Assembly: GCA_043822345.1 (NCBI GenBank)
Contig: JBDRBW010000022.1
Coordinates: forward strand, 1 to 35,338
Reading direction: 5' to 3'
Length of the DNA: 35,338 nt
Origin: Patescibacteria group bacterium
Lineage (GTDB): Bacteria > Patescibacteriota > Minisyncoccia > UBA6257 > UBA11618
The position numbers and the translations under genes were made by a program. Positions 4,274 to 30,851 of this stretch are shown here, piece by piece (within the stretch, counting starts at the first letter, position 1; every line of letters begins with the position of its first letter). The notes under the pieces were generated by a model. The model saw only the letters and a program-made list of their open reading frames with translations, ran no database searches and had not been told where the DNA came from.

Positions 4274-4300
4274 GTCATCCCGGACTCGATCCGGGATCTA
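4274..4300. repeat. REP-like palindrome just upstream of the clpB start
   Basis: GTCATCCCGGACTCGATCCGGGATCTA, same subtype as 2655-2681 and 17276-17302. Confidence 0.85.
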
Positions 4301-4353
4301 TATAAGTCCTATGTTACTGAAAAATAGAGAAAGTGTCAAATATTTCTCAAATT

Positions 4354-4460
4354 CCAGTGATCAGTTACCAGTGACCAGTCAAATTCCAATTATTAAAATT
4401 CCATTGGTCACTTATTCCATTGGTCACTGATTGGTCACTGAAAAATGGCCACTGGTCACT
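4354..4460. repeat. Short-unit (CAGTGAC/GTCACTG) inverted repeat array
   Basis: CCAGTGATCAGTTACCAGTGACCAGTC faces several TTGGTCACT/CTGGTCACT units and abuts the iscS stop. Confidence 0.75.
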
Positions 4461-4461
4461 C

Positions 4462-5976
4462 TTAGTTAAACCTATTCCTCAAAACTTCCAAAACATAATC
4501 AATCTCTTCTTGGGTAGTAAATTTCCCCAACGAAAAACGGATACTACTCGTCGGCCGATCGTCTCCCCCTGTGTTGCTCGTCATTCTGAGCTTTCGCGAA
4601 GAATCTTTCGCTTGTCGAAGGGCTTCAATTACATGCGACGGCTGGGCCGCCCGCGCCGAACAGGCCGAGACCGTGGAAGCCGCCACCCCCGCCAAATCCA
4701 GTTCAATTATCAAATCCTGCGCCGGCCTCCCCGGAAAATAGATATTCAAATTATTAGGGACCCGTCTCATGTTCGTCATCTCGAGCTTGTCGAGAGATCT
4801 CATCCGCGCCCCTTTCTCATTAAACCAACCATTCACTTCTATATCAGGCACAATTTTCTTCAACTCCTGCCAAAAATAATCCCGTAAACCGCCAATTCTC
4901 TTTACTTCTTCAGTTCGCGCCGCCTCCGCCAGCTCTACCGCCTTACCAAAGCCAACCACCCCTGCCACATTCTCCGTCCCCGCCCGCAGGCCCCACTCCT
5001 GACCACCGCCGGTAATAATAGGATTTAAGATTTTTTTCGGATTTCGCGCGAATAGTGCCCCAACTCCCTTCGGCCCATAAATTTTGTGCGCCGACAAAGT
5101 CATCAAATCAACCCCCAACTCCTCCACATCGCACTTTAGAAATTGGAACGCTTGAACAGCGTCTGTGTGGAAAAGAGGATACATAACGCCGTCATCTCGA
5201 GCCTGTCGCCCGCCCGCCTCGCTATGCAAGGCATTGCGGGCAGGAGAGATCTCAATGATTTGTTTTTTGGACGATGATGAGATTTCTCCACTCCTCCGCC
5301 AGCTGGCGGATTCGGTCGAAATGACACTCTTCTTTTTTACTATTCCATCTCTAAACTCTCCAATCATCCTCCCAATCTCCGCAATCGGCTGTACCACCCC
5401 AATCTCCGAATTCACCATTCCAATAGAAACCAACACTGTCCGCTCATTCAACTCCTCCTTCAACTTCTTCAAACCCACCAACCCTCCTCTGTCCACCGGC
5501 AAATAAACCACCTCCACCCCCCAATTCTCCTCCAAATCCTTACAGGTCGCCAAAACCGAAGAGTGTTCAATCTTAGATGTAATTAAGCGTAGAGGCGCAT
5601 TCGCATGCTGTTTTTCAGAATGTCTCGGAGGCGAGTTTGCTTGGTCCCGCTCCGCGGGAAACTCGCCGAGAGCCAAGCGGCTGGTTTTCGCTGGAAAAAC
5701 CAGACCGCGGTTCTGAAAAATAGCTGCGAATGCGCCTCGGAGCGCCAAATTATTTGCCTCACTCGCCGACCCGGTAAAAATCACCTCATTATATTTGCAA
5801 CCCAACGCCCGCGCTATCTGCTCATGCGCCGTAAACACCGCCCGCGACGCTTCCTGTCCAAAAGAGTGCACCGACCCCGGATTGCCAAAAATTTCACCAC
5901 AATAAGACCGCATCGCCTTTTCCACTTCCTTATCCATCGGCGTTGTCGCCGCATAATCCAAGTAGACACGTTTCAT
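4462..5976 (-). CDS. iscS: Cysteine desulfurase (IscS/NifS family) with four in-frame repeat insertions
   Basis: YLDYAATTP, GNPGSVH, HTDAVQ, SAHKIYGPKG (PLP lysine), RAGTEN and SACS. It is 504 aa versus roughly 380-400 aa typical for the family. Confidence 0.9.
   Translation of the reverse strand: MKRVYLDYAATTPMDKEVEKAMRSYCGEIFGNPGSVHSFGQEASRAVFTAHEQIARALGCKYNEVIFTGSASEANNLALRGAFAAIFQNRGLVFPAKTSRLALGEFPAERDQANSPPRHSEKQHANAPLRLITSKIEHSSVLATCKDLEENWGVEVVYLPVDRGGLVGLKKLKEELNERTVLVSIGMVNSEIGVVQPIAEIGRMIGEFRDGIVKKKSVISTESASWRRSGEISSSSKKQIIEISPARNALHSEAGGRQARDDGVMYPLFHTDAVQAFQFLKCDVEELGVDLMTLSAHKIYGPKGVGALFARNPKKILNPIITGGGQEWGLRAGTENVAGVVGFGKAVELAEAARTEEVKRIGGLRDYFWQELKKIVPDIEVNGWFNEKGARMRSLDKLEMTNMRRVPNNLNIYFPGRPAQDLIIELDLAGVAASTVSACSARAAQPSHVIEALRQAKDSSRKLRMTSNTGGDDRPTSSIRFSLGKFTTQEEIDYVLEVLRNRFN
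4579..4606. repeat. REP-like unit in-frame in iscS
   Basis: CGTCATTCTGAGCTTTCGCGAAGAATCT, translated as DSSRKLRMT. Confidence 0.8.
4774..4803. repeat. REP-like unit in-frame in iscS
   Basis: CGTCATCTCGAGCTTGTCGAGAGATCTCAT, translated as MRSLDKLEMT. Confidence 0.85.
5191..5325. repeat. REP-like doublet (135 bp) in-frame in iscS, with nested palindromes
   Basis: GTCATCTCGA...GTCGAAATGAC. Contains a nested 36 bp unit at 5209-5244 and the perfect palindrome TCCGCCAGCTGGCGGA at 5295-5310. Confidence 0.85.
5592..5738. repeat. Structured multi-stem element, copy A (in-frame in iscS)
   Basis: Arms GAGGCGCATTCGCA...TGCGAATGCGCCTC. Core nearly identical to 30727-30825. Length 147 bp. Confidence 0.85.
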
Positions 5977-6001
5977 ACTTTAAGTATAGAGTATAAAGTA
6001 T

Positions 6002-6697
6002 ATGGCGAAAACAGACAAATGTTTTTATTTATCAAAAATTGATGAGCGCGGCAAATTAAAAATCTGGCTGGTTGACGGCAGTTATATCCGCGGCCACTTA
6101 GACGAAGAATTTACCAACTTCGGCCAGCACTATCGCTATTCCTATATTCCCATCAATGAATTATGGGTTGACCAAGAGGCCGAACACGATGAACACAATT
6201 TTTTCATTGACCATCTTTTAATAGAATATCAATTGATGAAAAAAGGCGCTTCCTACGATGACGCCCTAGTAGCGGCCGACAAGGCCGAACAACGAGAACG
6301 GCGCCGCGCCGGCGATGTTAAAAAACTAACTCATAATGGCCAAAAATTGCCCGATGGAAAAGAGGTTCACGAAGAATTATGGAAAACACTAGAGAATGGT
6401 ATTCAAGTGTGGGTTGTTAACGGCCGATTGGTACGCAGTGTTTTTGACATTGATTTTACCGCCGGCGGCCATGATCATGTTTATGAATTCGTCCCCAAAA
6501 ACGAGGTGTGGATTGATGACGCGATTATTAAACCGGAACGCGGCTATGTCCTCCTCCACGAACTGCACGAACGCAACCAGATGGCTAAAGGGTTGCGTTA
6601 TAGTAAAGCCCACGCCGAATCCAGCCGTTTGGAATTCCATTGCCGCCACCATCCCGACGAACTCCACGACGCCCTCGCTAAAGAAGGCTGGGCATAA
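6002..6697 (+). CDS. Hypothetical protein with two tandem homologous domains, putative metal-binding HExxE motif
   Basis: 231 aa. IWLVDGSYIR...ELWVD...HLLIE aligns with VWVVNGRLVR...EVWID...HELHE. Confidence 0.8.
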   Translation: MAKTDKCFYLSKIDERGKLKIWLVDGSYIRGHLDEEFTNFGQHYRYSYIPINELWVDQEAEHDEHNFFIDHLLIEYQLMKKGASYDDALVAADKAEQRERRRAGDVKKLTHNGQKLPDGKEVHEELWKTLENGIQVWVVNGRLVRSVFDIDFTAGGHDHVYEFVPKNEVWIDDAIIKPERGYVLLHELHERNQMAKGLRYSKAHAESSRLEFHCRHHPDELHDALAKEGWA

Positions 6698-14464: not shown

Positions 14465-14707
14465 TTACACAGCGACTTTTAGACGTTCTTTCCGGAATAG
14501 ATTAGATTTTTGCGATTCTAACATTCTATCTTTTAACAAGGATTCAAGATAACAACGAATAGCATCCTTAGCCATTTCTCTAGCCTCTTTCAAATTATCG
14601 CCTTCAGTAACAAGACCCGGTAATTTAGGTACCGTTACAGTATATCCACTGCCGTTAGGATTAAAAACAACACTATATTGATAAATATCTTCTGTGTATT
14701 TTTTCAT
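14465..14707 (-). CDS. hicB: HicB family antitoxin (short form)
   Basis: YTVTVPKLPGLVTEGDNLKEAREMAKDAI. ATG 14707 chosen because TTGCTT-17-TACCTT lies just upstream. Confidence 0.85.
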   Translation of the reverse strand: MKKYTEDIYQYSVVFNPNGSGYTVTVPKLPGLVTEGDNLKEAREMAKDAIRCYLESLLKDRMLESQKSNLFRKERLKVAV

Positions 14708-14773
14708 TAACTTCAAGGTAACAAATAAATTAGTGAAAAGCAAATTTCATAAACGATCGCTTCAGGCGACCGT

Positions 14774-15704: not shown

Positions 15705-15899
15705 AAACAGGCAACACAGAGTTGTTTCGAAAAGTGTCTCGGAAGCCGCCCGAGCTTGGTGTTTCGCGATAGCGAAACTCGGGCGGCTGAGAGCAAGGAC
15801 GGCTCGCCGCTGCCTGCCCGCCAACGCCAGAGCGTAGCGATGGCAGGCGGGGAGCGAGCCGAGCCGTCTTTCTCGAAACAACCTCTGTGTTGCCTGTTT
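15705..15899. repeat. Structured multi-stem element, copy C, with a nested 39 bp unit
   Basis: Arms AAACAGGCAACACAGAG-TTGTTTCGA / TCGAAACAACCTCTGTGTTGCCTGTTT. Core TGTCTCGGA...CTTGGT...GAGAGCAAG...CGCTG[ins]GA. Abuts the glyA stop. Confidence 0.85.
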
Positions 15900-22680: not shown

Positions 22681-22854
22681 AAAAAGACACCGTAAGGTTG
22701 TTTTGAAAAATGTTTCGGAAATCGCTTGAGCTTGGTGTCCCGCCTACTTTTAAAATTAAACGATGGCGGGACTCAAGCGATTGAGAACAAGAAGCGGCTC
22801 ACCGCTGGAGTGAGCCGACTTCGGTTTTTCAAAACAATCTTACAGTGTCTTTTT
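22681..22854. repeat. Structured multi-stem element, copy D
   Basis: 30 bp arms AAAAAGACACCGTAAGGTTGTTTTGAAAAA / TTTTTCAAAACAATCTTACAGTGTCTTTTT. Core TGTTTCGGA...CTTGGT...GAGAACAAG...CGCTGGA. Confidence 0.85.
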
Positions 22855-23020: not shown

Positions 23021-23266
23021 CTATTTACTTGCTTTGTAAGTTGTCTCGTTCCGTCGTTCGATAGCCAAAATAAATATTTGATTGTTAATTTTTCTGTAAA
23101 TAATTCTCAAATTGCCTTTTCGAACACGAAAAATATCCTCCCTATCTATTAATTTCTTGATATCTAAGCCATTTAAATTATCTGAAGATAATTTTTTAAA
23201 TATTTCCTTTGCAAACTCTCTCTCCTTAACAGAAAGTTTTTTGAGAGCTTTTCCAATTCTATCCAT
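23021..23266 (-). CDS. RelE/ParE family toxin
   Basis: KALKKL...DIKKL....IFRVRKGNLRIIY...ILAIERR..TY pattern, downstream of an antitoxin. Confidence 0.8.
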   Translation of the reverse strand: MDRIGKALKKLSVKEREFAKEIFKKLSSDNLNGLDIKKLIDREDIFRVRKGNLRIIYRKINNQIFILAIERRNETTYKASK

Positions 23267-27072: not shown

Positions 27073-27550
27073 CGTCATCTCGACCGAAGTGGAGAGATCT
27101 CATTAATGTGGACGCATTGAGATCTTTCGACTCCGCTTCGCTTCGCTCAAGATGACAAGATGACAGAAGTAGTCATCTCGACCGAAGTGGAGAGATCTCA
27201 TTAATTCCAATCATCAGATAAATCCTTAAATTCGGGATTATTTTTCTTAATTAGCTCTATCTTTTTCTTTCTTGACCACCTTTTAAGTTGTTTTTCTCTA
27301 GAAATCGCATCATACGGATTATCAAAAACTTCATAGTGTATAACCTTATTTAAATTATATTTTTCAGTAAAACCTTTAACTTGCTTTTGTTTGTGCTGCC
27401 AAGCTCTGTTAGAAATATCGTTAGTAACTCCTATATAGGATGTCGTATTCCACTTGTTCATCATTATGTAAACATAAAGATTTTTGCTCATAGTGATGTT
27501 GATGAGATTTCTCGACTTCACTCACTTCGTTCGTTTCGCTCGAAATGACG
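27073..27550. mobile_element. Candidate REP-flanked GIY-YIG cassette
   Basis: REP units at 27073-27103, 27118-27156, 27172-27201 and 27502-27550. The last two face each other around the nuclease gene. Confidence 0.65.
27201..27491 (-). CDS. Small stand-alone GIY-YIG nuclease family protein
   Basis: LYVYIM...YIGVTND...R..QH...GFTEKY...YEVF...AISREKQLKRWSR..K..LI...NP. Start set at MSKNLY. Confidence 0.92.
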   Translation of the reverse strand: MSKNLYVYIMMNKWNTTSYIGVTNDISNRAWQHKQKQVKGFTEKYNLNKVIHYEVFDNPYDAISREKQLKRWSRKKKIELIKKNNPEFKDLSDDWN

Positions 27551-30700: not shown

Positions 30701-30851
30701 ACAACGGTAGTGGATATAGTTCGAAGGAATGTCTCGGAGGCGAATTTGCTTGGTCCCGAGCTTGCGAGGGAAATTCGCCGAGAGCCAAGCGGCTGATTTT
30801 CGCCGGAAAAATCAGACCGCGGTTCCTGAGAGCTATATCCACTACCGTTGT
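30701..30851. repeat. Structured multi-stem element, copy B
   Basis: Perfect 19 bp arms ACAACGGTAGTGGATATAG / CTATATCCACTACCGTTGT. Core matches copy A. Lies 7 nt after the rny stop. Confidence 0.85.

What the first reader, a model, noticed from the sequence alone, without database searches (positions are those of the whole stretch)
4462..5976. IscS carries ~340 bp of inserts from at least three repeat families yet stays open
Seen: inserts at 4579-4606, 4774-4803, 5191-5325 (with nested units) and 5592-5738 add roughly 110 aa. The PLP lysine and catalytic Cys persist, but the usual GSAC motif reads VSAC. One arm of the 147 bp element overlaps host-like codons (NLALRG), hinting that arms may be extended by inverted copying of the target. 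Inference: either an extremely insertion-tolerant enzyme or an insertion hotspot under relaxed selection.
Basis: partly seen in the sequence, partly recalled or inferred. Interest (0 to 1): 0.7.

Follow-up and report, generated by a model that had tools for sequence, protein, structure and literature searches.

The report
Self-mirroring hairpin repeats inside cysteine desulfurase
A sulfur-mobilising enzyme gene of an ultra-small groundwater bacterium carries four in-frame stretches of hairpin repeat DNA (113 extra codons) that are predicted to form surface loops of a likely working enzyme, much as is known from Rickettsia; the unusual part is the largest repeat, whose two arms mirror each genome's own enzyme codons, likely because one arm is repeatedly copied onto the other.

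Summary
The 504-aa class I cysteine desulfurase has four in-frame inserts (net 36+52+10+15 aa = 339 bp), supported by public contigs. Three are CGTC-REP/Ssn-motif-type hairpins. The fourth is a copy of a ~150-bp three-way-junction repeat ('L') with no Rfam match, found in 21 of 41 related Patescibacteria genomes.

Inserts 1-3 lie in loops that relatives also expand (41-63 of 119 homologues). L occupies loop 1 in 14 genomes. Frames are kept genome-wide (58 of 59) and the modelled core fold is intact. This is a tolerated hotspot under selection, not a dying gene. Against this: three rare substitutions (including G436V beside the catalytic Cys) and a near-unique insert 4.

L's outer stem has a near-fixed length (17-22 bp in 54 of 90 copies) but free sequence. 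It overlaps the Arg-Gly-Ala/Val codons and co-varies with them (32 of 34 double changes keep pairing), and one allele has an inverted core. Arm-to-arm copying is the likely cause; copying from the target at insertion is not shown.

The scan already noted repeat-laden IscS in other CPR genomes and private stems in Saccharibacteria. Verdict: a new variant of a known kind.

The parts
4462..5976 (-). Class I (IscS/NifS/YrvO-like) cysteine desulfurase ORF, 504 aa; the only copy found in the assembly
5592..5738 (+). Insert 1: L element with its basal-stem arms (folding strand = window +, antisense to the gene); net +35 to 36 aa in the loop after NLALRG
5618..5714 (+). Conserved core of L (two inner hairpins, three-way junction); 85-91% identical to the closest six other copies in this genome
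5711..5738 (+). Right arm of L; on the coding strand it includes the host-type codons Leu-Arg-Gly-Ala
5592..5620 (+). Left arm of L, mirror of the right arm; read as H-A-N-A-P-L-R on the coding strand
5190..5325 (.). Insert 2: inverted dimer of CGTC-tagged hairpins with two nested palindromes; net +52 aa
5209..5244 (.). Nested 36-bp palindrome; the 62-bp composite around it is 100% identical to one in mnmA (G000 C9:41584-41645)
5295..5310 (.). Nested 16-bp perfect palindrome in the second hairpin of insert 2
   Evidence: sequence
4774..4803 (+). Insert 3: CGTC-tagged hairpin monomer; net +10 aa against G001
4579..4608 (+). Insert 4: CGTC-tagged hairpin monomer plus ~15 nt; net +15 aa, in a segment of fixed length in 114 of 118 homologues
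5083..5085 (-). Lys298, PLP Schiff-base lysine (SAHK)
4660..4662 (-). Cys439, catalytic cysteine
4669..4671 (-). Val436 in place of the near-invariant Gly of the S-x-G-x-A-C motif
   Evidence: contig support
15726..15876 (+). Intergenic L copy (folD-glyA) with a nested 39-bp palindrome
22702..22833 (+). Intergenic L copy
30721..30831 (+). Intergenic L copy downstream of rny; closest relative of the iscS core (91%)
27201..27521 (-). 106-aa single-domain GIY-YIG gene flanked on both sides by GTCAT hairpins; Ssn-like, candidate partner of inserts 2-4

Best explanation
Small hairpin repeats sit in frame in four loops of this cysteine desulfurase gene and are likely translated as dispensable surface loops of an enzyme that is likely still active, while the two arms of the largest repeat mirror each other and the host codons they overlap, most likely through repeated template-switch copying during replication. 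Shown: the inserts, their family membership, frame retention, reuse of the same loops across the order, and arm co-variation. Inferred: (1) repeats land throughout a gene-dense genome and survive in genes only if they are 3n long, stop-free and in a permissive loop; (2) the CGTC hairpins are spread with help of the Ssn-like nuclease; (3) L is a ~150-bp mobile hairpin with a basal stem of fixed length and free sequence, which entered loop 1 at least three times in the order and has since been lost, inverted and core-swapped; (4) once the stem overlaps coding sequence, a change in one arm is copied to the other when both peptides stay tolerable; (5) the enzyme's job is sulfur supply to MnmA.
For: Selection on the frame:
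- 58 of 59 repeat regions inside spans homologous to G001 proteins lie in one open ORF; neither of the 2 frameshifts found has a repeat.
- The nested palindrome is 3n long in 6 of 7 core-gene copies but only 5 of 12 intergenic ones; only 15-50% of frames of intergenic repeats are stop-free; 198 of 294 repeat regions lie in the 13% of the genome outside ORFs.

Permissive loops: one search counts; L in loop 1 of 14 genomes; other repeat types in the same loop.

Enzyme intact:
- D7, H138, N189, D272, Q275, S295, K298, T334, C439 and R480 are all present.
- AlphaFold model: 311 residues at pLDDT >= 90, with low confidence only inside the four inserts. TM 0.90 (target-normalised), rmsd 2.6 A to E. 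coli IscS 1p3w.
- Identity to G001 0.60 against a genome median of 0.63; end branch 0.61 = median of 28.

Arm copying:
- Inverted-repeat score 29-49 in 4 filled alleles, against 8-17 (none above its shuffle 95th percentile) in 21 loops without L.
- Over the 12 nt from the Arg codon, three genomes differ at 4 positions, including synonymous Arg and Gly letters; the mirror arm follows in 11 of 12 cells (sequences).
- Among five alleles with homologous arms, 32 of 34 double changes keep Watson-Crick pairing (10 non-independent pairs).
- G286 carries the core inverted between collinear outer arms.
- Template switching converting imperfect to perfect inverted repeats is described in PMC5941160 (passages).

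Partner: MnmA family in 40 of 41 genomes, desulfurase in 37 of 41, no NifU/IscU found in G000.
Against: No RNA, protein or activity data. R51H, T72S and G436V put this protein among the 3 of 120 with at least 3 departures at near-invariant columns. Insert 4 is nearly unique. In the 52-row tree the end branch is 0.76 against a median of 0.49 (insert columns partly kept, no close relative). Low pLDDT in the inserts may only reflect thin alignment there. Arm mismatches are biased to G-T pairs on one strand (131 vs 32), which suggests selection on the fold as well as neutral copying. The G030 allele has lost its arms, so copying is not perpetual. No mobiliser for L was found.
Confidence: 0.7

Rival explanations
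1. The enzyme in this lineage is in early decay or under relaxed selection, and G436V with insert 4 has weakened or killed it.
For: Val436 is unique among 120 proteins, His51 unique, Ser72 seen once more; top 3 of 120 for such departures; site 4 expanded by at least 8 aa in only 2 of 118 homologues; 4 of 41 genomes gave no desulfurase match.
Against: Four inserts with two nested units all keep the frame (chance at most (1/3)^4, about 1%, if lengths were free; intergenic lengths are not restricted to 3n). No stop codon; catalytic set intact; sole copy found; ordinary divergence. Insert load does not correlate with loss of conserved residues across 120 proteins (Spearman -0.13, p 0.17).
Confidence: 0.15
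2. L's outer arm is made at insertion: the mobile unit is the core plus the left arm, and the right arm is the target itself, either copied in inverted form or chosen because it matches the left arm.
For: In 11 of 14 iscS alleles the loop outside the core is 55-73 nt, as long as an empty loop (about 63 nt), so the arms are not additive. In iscS (4 alleles), G032 mnmA and G017 tsaD the host-like codons are always in the element's right arm. At one intergenic site G009 and G016 lack exactly the core plus left arm (144 nt) and keep a homologue of the right arm. Each iscS core is closest to copies of its own genome or genus. Arm length is nearly fixed.
Against: About half of the arms are shared between loci of one genome (42 of 89 private), so arms can travel whole. 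The 'empty' right arm at the G015 site resembles the family arm, and G003 holds ~90 unexplained nt there, so it may be a deletion scar. P0003 and P0009 keep the downstream host loop, and P0104 looks like a scar with both arms. Sister proteins P0003/P0006 (81% identical) carry different cores at one site, which points to core replacement rather than fresh insertion.
Confidence: 0.25
3. The arms stay paired only through selection on a functional RNA or single-stranded DNA fold, by stepwise compensatory mutation.
For: 27 of 31 predicted pairs show two-sided changes; G-T bias to one strand; fixed stem length.
Against: Inside iscS both arms also encode protein and the folding strand is antisense to the gene in 12 of 14 alleles. 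Stepwise change does not explain an inverted core between collinear arms. Two-sided changes (34) outnumber one-sided ones (17).
Confidence: 0.15
4. The inserts are removed at the RNA level or skipped by the ribosome.
For: Strong hairpins; no expression data to exclude it.
Against: Inserts in genes are 3n and stop-free while intergenic copies are not; they fall in loops that differ in length across homologues.
Confidence: 0.04
5. Misassembly at repeats.
For: Metagenome assembly with about 300 repeat regions; one junction is not bridged by a listed contig.
Against: Contigs of two studies match across most junctions; 13 other genomes have L in the same loop.
Confidence: 0.01

Closest known systems
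Rickettsia palindromic elements (RPE), as described in PMC3733652 (passages) and cited in PMC2759123 (passages); the primary papers were not read
   Same: Palindromic repeats inserted in frame in conserved genes that likely stay functional; RPE-4 and RPE-6 are CGTC-tagged like inserts 2-4.
   Different: Different phylum; four inserts from several families in one enzyme; one loop reused across an order; L's stem is sequence-free and co-varies with host codons, which the passages read do not describe for RPE.
CGTC-tagged REPs (PMC3733652) and Ssn-related motifs with the Ssn GIY-YIG ssDNA nuclease (PMC11893778, passages)
   Same: CGTC/TGTC tag, 8-bp stem starting with AT, head-to-head dimers, intragenic copies, and a small GIY-YIG gene flanked by the repeats in the window.
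   Different: The iscS hairpins carry a tandem G-A mismatch and CTC/CTT tails and do not match the published SRM pattern (15 matches in the genome, none in iscS). The Ssn paper has no occurrence of 'Patescibacteria'. L is not an SRM.
Template-switch correction of quasi-palindromes (PMC5941160, passages) and coding palindromes of Nematomorpha mitochondria (PMC6649704, passages)
   Same: Both arms of an inverted repeat encode protein and are kept complementary, with template switching as the proposed cause.
   Different: Here the stem closes a ~100-bp mobile core, has a near-fixed length, and keeps family-specific mismatches.
Class I cysteine desulfurases (IscS, NifS, YrvO; PMC8300815, passages)
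   Same: Fold, PLP lysine, catalytic Cys loop.
   Different: Val in place of the Gly of the SSGSAC identifier; below the IscS and NifS equivalog cut-offs (as are insert-free relatives); no isc operon around it.

Membership tests
Class I cysteine desulfurase | PLP lysine and PLP/substrate residues (His, Asp/Gln, Thr, Asn, Arg) | tested here: met
Class I cysteine desulfurase | Catalytic Cys in the extended class I loop | tested here: met
Class I cysteine desulfurase | SSGSAC-type identifier with Gly (PMC8300815) | tested here: not met
   STVSAC; Gly in 118 of 119 homologues
Class I cysteine desulfurase | IscS/NifS fold | tested here: met
   predicted model, TM 0.90 to 1p3w
Class I cysteine desulfurase | Desulfurase activity | not testable with these tools
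   needs an assay
IscS in the strict sense (TIGR02006, isc operon) | Score over the equivalog cut-off; iscU nearby | tested here: not met
   291 bits against 643; insert-free relatives 344-347; no NifU_N match in G000, 77.5% complete; neighbour is clpB
CGTC REP / SRM (inserts 2-4) | Unpaired CGTC/TGTC tag followed by an 8-9 bp stem starting with AT | tested here: met
   sequence; the stem has a tandem G-A mismatch
CGTC REP / SRM (inserts 2-4) | Loop of 4-5 nt and CCA-like tail | tested here: inconclusive
   loops of 5 and 6 nt, tails CTC and CTT
CGTC REP / SRM (inserts 2-4) | Match to the published degenerate SRM pattern | tested here: not met
   15 matches in G000 (0-1 in 5 shuffles), none inside iscS
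CGTC REP / SRM (inserts 2-4) | Small GIY-YIG gene flanked by the repeats | tested here: met
   assignment to cd10448 could not be run
CGTC REP / SRM (inserts 2-4) | Cleavage of the hairpin by the cognate nuclease | not testable with these tools
   needs an assay
Rickettsia palindromic elements | In-frame insertion into conserved genes, multi-copy, palindromic | tested here: met
Rickettsia palindromic elements | Sequence homology to an RPE family | not tested
   no RPE sequence was fetched; filed as works-like, not as a member
MITE (for L) | Family-wide terminal inverted repeats | tested here: inconclusive
   inner ~11 bp conserved by subfamily; outer 17-22 bp variable, private in 42 of 89 copies
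MITE (for L) | Target-site duplication | tested here: inconclusive
   one filled/empty pair, only a short T run on both sides
MITE / REPIN-RAYT (for L) | Cognate transposase next to or matching the element | tested here: inconclusive
   no Y1 transposase in G000; no recurring nuclease or transposase neighbour among 103 copies; other transposase families not searched
Any Rfam family (for L) | Covariance-model match | tested here: not met
   0 matches up to E = 1 in 4300-6100

The most novel reading that the evidence does not exclude
L is an undescribed mobile hairpin of Patescibacteria that carries its own ~20-nt targeting guide: the core plus left arm inserts beside a site that matches (or is copied into) that arm, so the target becomes the right arm of a fixed-length stem. 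Later arm-to-arm copying rewrites the guide to the host sequence, which would let the element retarget itself and explain why one enzyme loop is occupied again and again.
Probability: 0.2. Interest if true: 0.78.

Novelty: new variant of a known kind. Interest (0 to 1): 0.47.

Why it matters
In-frame palindromes in enzymes have been known since the Rickettsia work, so the inserts alone are a further example, in a phylum where four paper searches found no report.

This locus adds two things. First, a natural deletion-and-insertion series: one enzyme loop filled, emptied, inverted and core-swapped across at least 14 genomes, which maps where a class I desulfurase accepts foreign peptide. Second, a comparative case of paired changes in two coding arms, which makes template-switch mutagenesis countable in nature. 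If L proves to pick targets with its arm, it would be a new programmable-insertion principle. The G436V enzyme is also a ready test of how essential that glycine is.

Tried and rejected
- Rfam scan of 4300-6100: nothing.
- No RNA holder listed for this gene.
- Runs X5 and X6 added no cover of the Val codon or of an empty allele.
- The metagenome scan gave 11 loci, none close (best segment 46% identity). The protein search found no relative above 52%. So no same-genus comparison was possible, and dN/dS was not computed because synonymous sites would be saturated at 60-69% amino-acid identity.
- My first strict GTCAT-hairpin scan (46 hits) missed the iscS copies and was replaced by a BLAST census.
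- 'Every arm is private and target-made': rejected; many are shared within a genome.
- 'RG[AV]F is host sequence': cut back to RG[AV].
- 'Four independent insertions at one codon in the family': weakened; core replacement at an old site explains the data as well. The three different offsets (20 nt in 4 alleles, 30-32 in 9, 41 in 1) remain.
- 'Element inserts into pre-existing hairpins': 21 iscS loops without L show none; 4 full-length orthologues were missed by the pattern and 2 are fragments.
- Private arms around inserts 2-4: none seen by eye in the sequence.
- Three of four filled/empty searches gave no usable empty site.
- Search for a mobiliser of L: none.
- No complex prediction was run.

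Full report
Setting. The window is contig C22 of a 520-kb, 77.5% complete assembly, G000. Holders are groundwater metagenomes. Named homologues are Patescibacteria, several Ca. Wolfebacteria.

1. Observation. The ORF 4462-5976(-) is open for 504 codons and is a class V aminotransferase-fold protein whose HMMER match to solved desulfurases breaks or gaps at four places. Self-BLAST marks repeats at exactly those places. Against the insert-free orthologue of G001 the net additions are 36, 52, 10 and 15 aa. Public contigs of two studies match across most junctions. One junction (4803-4887) is not bridged by a listed piece, and the best two runs may be the source. The motif reads STVSAC; the Val codon is the same in two contigs of one study.

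2. What the inserts are. Inserts 3 and 4 are single CGTC-tagged hairpins and insert 2 is an inverted dimer of them with two nested palindromes. This is the layout of CGTC REPs (PMC3733652, passages) and of Ssn-related motifs (PMC11893778, passages). The iscS copies are a variant with a tandem G-A mismatch and miss the strict SRM pattern. A 106-aa GIY-YIG gene flanked by such hairpins lies at 27201-27521; it is one of four small GIY-YIG genes in the assembly, two of which have these hairpins beside them.

Insert 1 belongs to another family, here called L. It has a ~100-bp core folding as a three-way junction (27 of 31 predicted pairs show two-sided changes in 18 copies) and no Rfam match. A model built from those 18 copies gives 108 hits in 21 of 41 related genomes, 20 of them in G000. 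I analysed 103 of the 108, leaving out 5 of the weakest.

3. Hotspot or decay. The genome has 294 regions of the two main repeat groups. Of these, 198 lie outside ORFs, which cover 87% of the sequence, and 96 lie inside. Of 294 genes with a reciprocal best hit in G001, 47 carry a repeat. IscS has the largest repeat-derived addition (113 aa), then TsaD (101 aa); MnmA has 69 aa (two larger gaps are an intein and a divergent repeat-free protein; gene names in that list are my reading of the sequences). Of 59 repeat regions inside homologous coding spans, 58 sit in one open frame. The exception is at a contig end and was not followed up. The nested palindrome is a multiple of three in 6 of 7 core-gene copies and 5 of 12 intergenic ones. 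Frame retention is therefore selected, and four in-frame inserts by chance would be about 1% or less.

Among 119 homologues, loops 1, 2 and 3 are at least 8 aa longer than the base length in 63, 58 and 41. Five control segments show 0-3 and loop 4 shows 2 of 118 (the search favours proteins that share the inserts). All PLP and catalytic residues checked are present. The AlphaFold model has 311 residues at pLDDT 90 or more, is uncertain only within the four inserts, and superposes on E. coli IscS with TM 0.90.

Against a clean bill: R51H, T72S and G436V. That is 3 of 71 conserved columns in the 29-row set, unremarkable there, but among the top 3 of 120 in the larger set. The end branch is the median in one tree and above it in another (0.76 vs 0.49).

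The protein is not IscS in the strict sense. With MnmA found in 40 of 41 genomes, the likely role is that of B. subtilis YrvO, the sulfur donor for s2U (PMC8300815, passage). This role is inferred.

4. The arms. 90 of 101 L copies have an inverted arm beyond the model ends that scores above the 99th percentile of cross-genome pairs. In 54 of the 90 it is 17-22 nt long. It is private in 42 of 89 copies and shared with other copies of the same genome in the rest. So the outer stem is a part of the element with fixed length and free sequence.

In iscS it overlaps host codons. G000, G009 and G013 differ at 4 of the 12 positions starting in the Arg codon, two of them synonymous, and the downstream arm follows in 11 of 12 cells. 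iscS loops without L have no such repeat (21 of 21 at or below the shuffle 95th percentile).

A search of 401 genomes with a weak 80-aa query (35 matched) added nine more iscS genes with L in this loop. That makes 14, at three offsets and in both orientations. The label needs 8 changes on a 52-row tree, 6 of them forced by well-supported branches. Five alleles with homologous arms show 34 double changes, 32 keeping Watson-Crick pairs, against 17 single-sided changes (10 pairs, not independent). G286 has the core and inner arms inverted relative to G295, with the outer letters collinear. Paired changes are what template switching produces (PMC5941160, passages; PMC6649704, passages); that it can also invert the spacer is recalled, not read here. 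A G-T bias to one strand (131 vs 32 in 95 copies) suggests that the fold is also selected or that this strand is the single-stranded intermediate.

Whether the outer arm is taken from the target at insertion stays open. For it: net length (11 of 14 alleles), the side on which host codons lie (6 of 6 cases judged) and one filled/empty site. Against it: shared arms, apparent scars (P0104, and the short loops of G003, G015 and G016) and different cores at one site in sister proteins. Each iscS core is closest to copies of its own genome or genus (G000 0.85-0.91, against 0.59-0.69 to other iscS cores), which fits fresh insertion or core replacement equally well.

5. Gene preference. Of 103 copies, 14 lay in long open frames and 9 were real in-gene insertions by alignment: iscS 5, mnmA 2, tsaD 1, prfB 1. 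Eight of the nine are in tRNA-modification genes, and IscS and TsaD also head the G000 list, with MnmA sixth among repeat-bearing genes. Permissive loops in modestly expressed enzymes is the plain reading; it was not tested.

6. Comparison and novelty. It works like the Rickettsia palindromic elements. It is not shown to be a member of them, since no sequence comparison was made. Inserts 2-4 are a variant of CGTC REP/SRM. L has no match in Rfam, and four searches found no paper on such repeats in Patescibacteria or on target-mirroring arms (listings only; other searches were). The library lacks most subscription papers, and I opened no supplements; the intragenic REP table of PMC3733652 and the genome lists of PMC11893778 may bear on this. 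Earlier unchecked notes of this scan report repeat-laden IscS in several other CPR genomes and private stems in Saccharibacteria, so the phenomenon is recurrent, not peculiar to this window.

Verdict. Real and well explained as selected tolerance of selfish hairpins, with a less ordinary twist in the co-evolving coding arms. Interest 0.47; new variant of a known kind.

Noticed in passing
window 5193-5254 and G000 C9:41584-41645: A 62-bp composite (hairpin plus nested palindrome) is 100% identical in iscS and mnmA, the two genes of the likely s2U pathway; a recent copy or conversion.
   Followed up: partly
window 4625: Two contigs read C instead of T here (Glu451 to Gly), so the population or the assembly varies next to insert 4.
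   Followed up: no
G000 C13 ~5285: An rpoC-like gene is frameshifted with no repeat nearby; probably an assembly error.
   Followed up: partly
G000 C8:60722-64996: DnaE carries a ~376-aa insertion with intein-like ends.
   Followed up: no
G000 C16:13142-13942; L144; L131; L125: Inverted pairs of L copies bracket single, unrelated accessory ORFs in three genomes, like a cassette system.
   Followed up: partly
window 15726-15876 and 30721-30831: L sits at the same intergenic sites in other genera (folD-glyA in G001; downstream of rny in G016), each time with different arms.
   Followed up: partly
L213-L216 (G000 C8:21174, C1:31605): Two further small GIY-YIG genes lie beside tRNA-like sequences and another repeat type, not beside GTCAT hairpins.
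   Followed up: no
window 4354-4463: A TGGTCAC-type short-unit repeat lies directly after the iscS stop, with relatives on C6, C23, C5 and C26.
   Followed up: no
window 5612-5719 and 4579-4803: The inner stem of most L copies and the stems of the GTCAT hairpins share a tandem G-A mismatch; in the iscS copy of L it has become perfectly paired.
   Followed up: partly
103 L copies: L mostly lies just after a stop codon and antisense to that gene: a gene ends toward its right arm in 57 copies, toward its left arm in 43, and closer on the right.
   Followed up: partly
window 14465-14743 and 23021-23266: A HicB-like antitoxin and a ParE-like toxin ORF, far apart; partners not looked for.
   Followed up: no
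G000 C2:4735-6840: One 701-aa ORF holds about ten repeat regions, more than iscS; it did not appear among the top 60 genes compared with G001.
   Followed up: no
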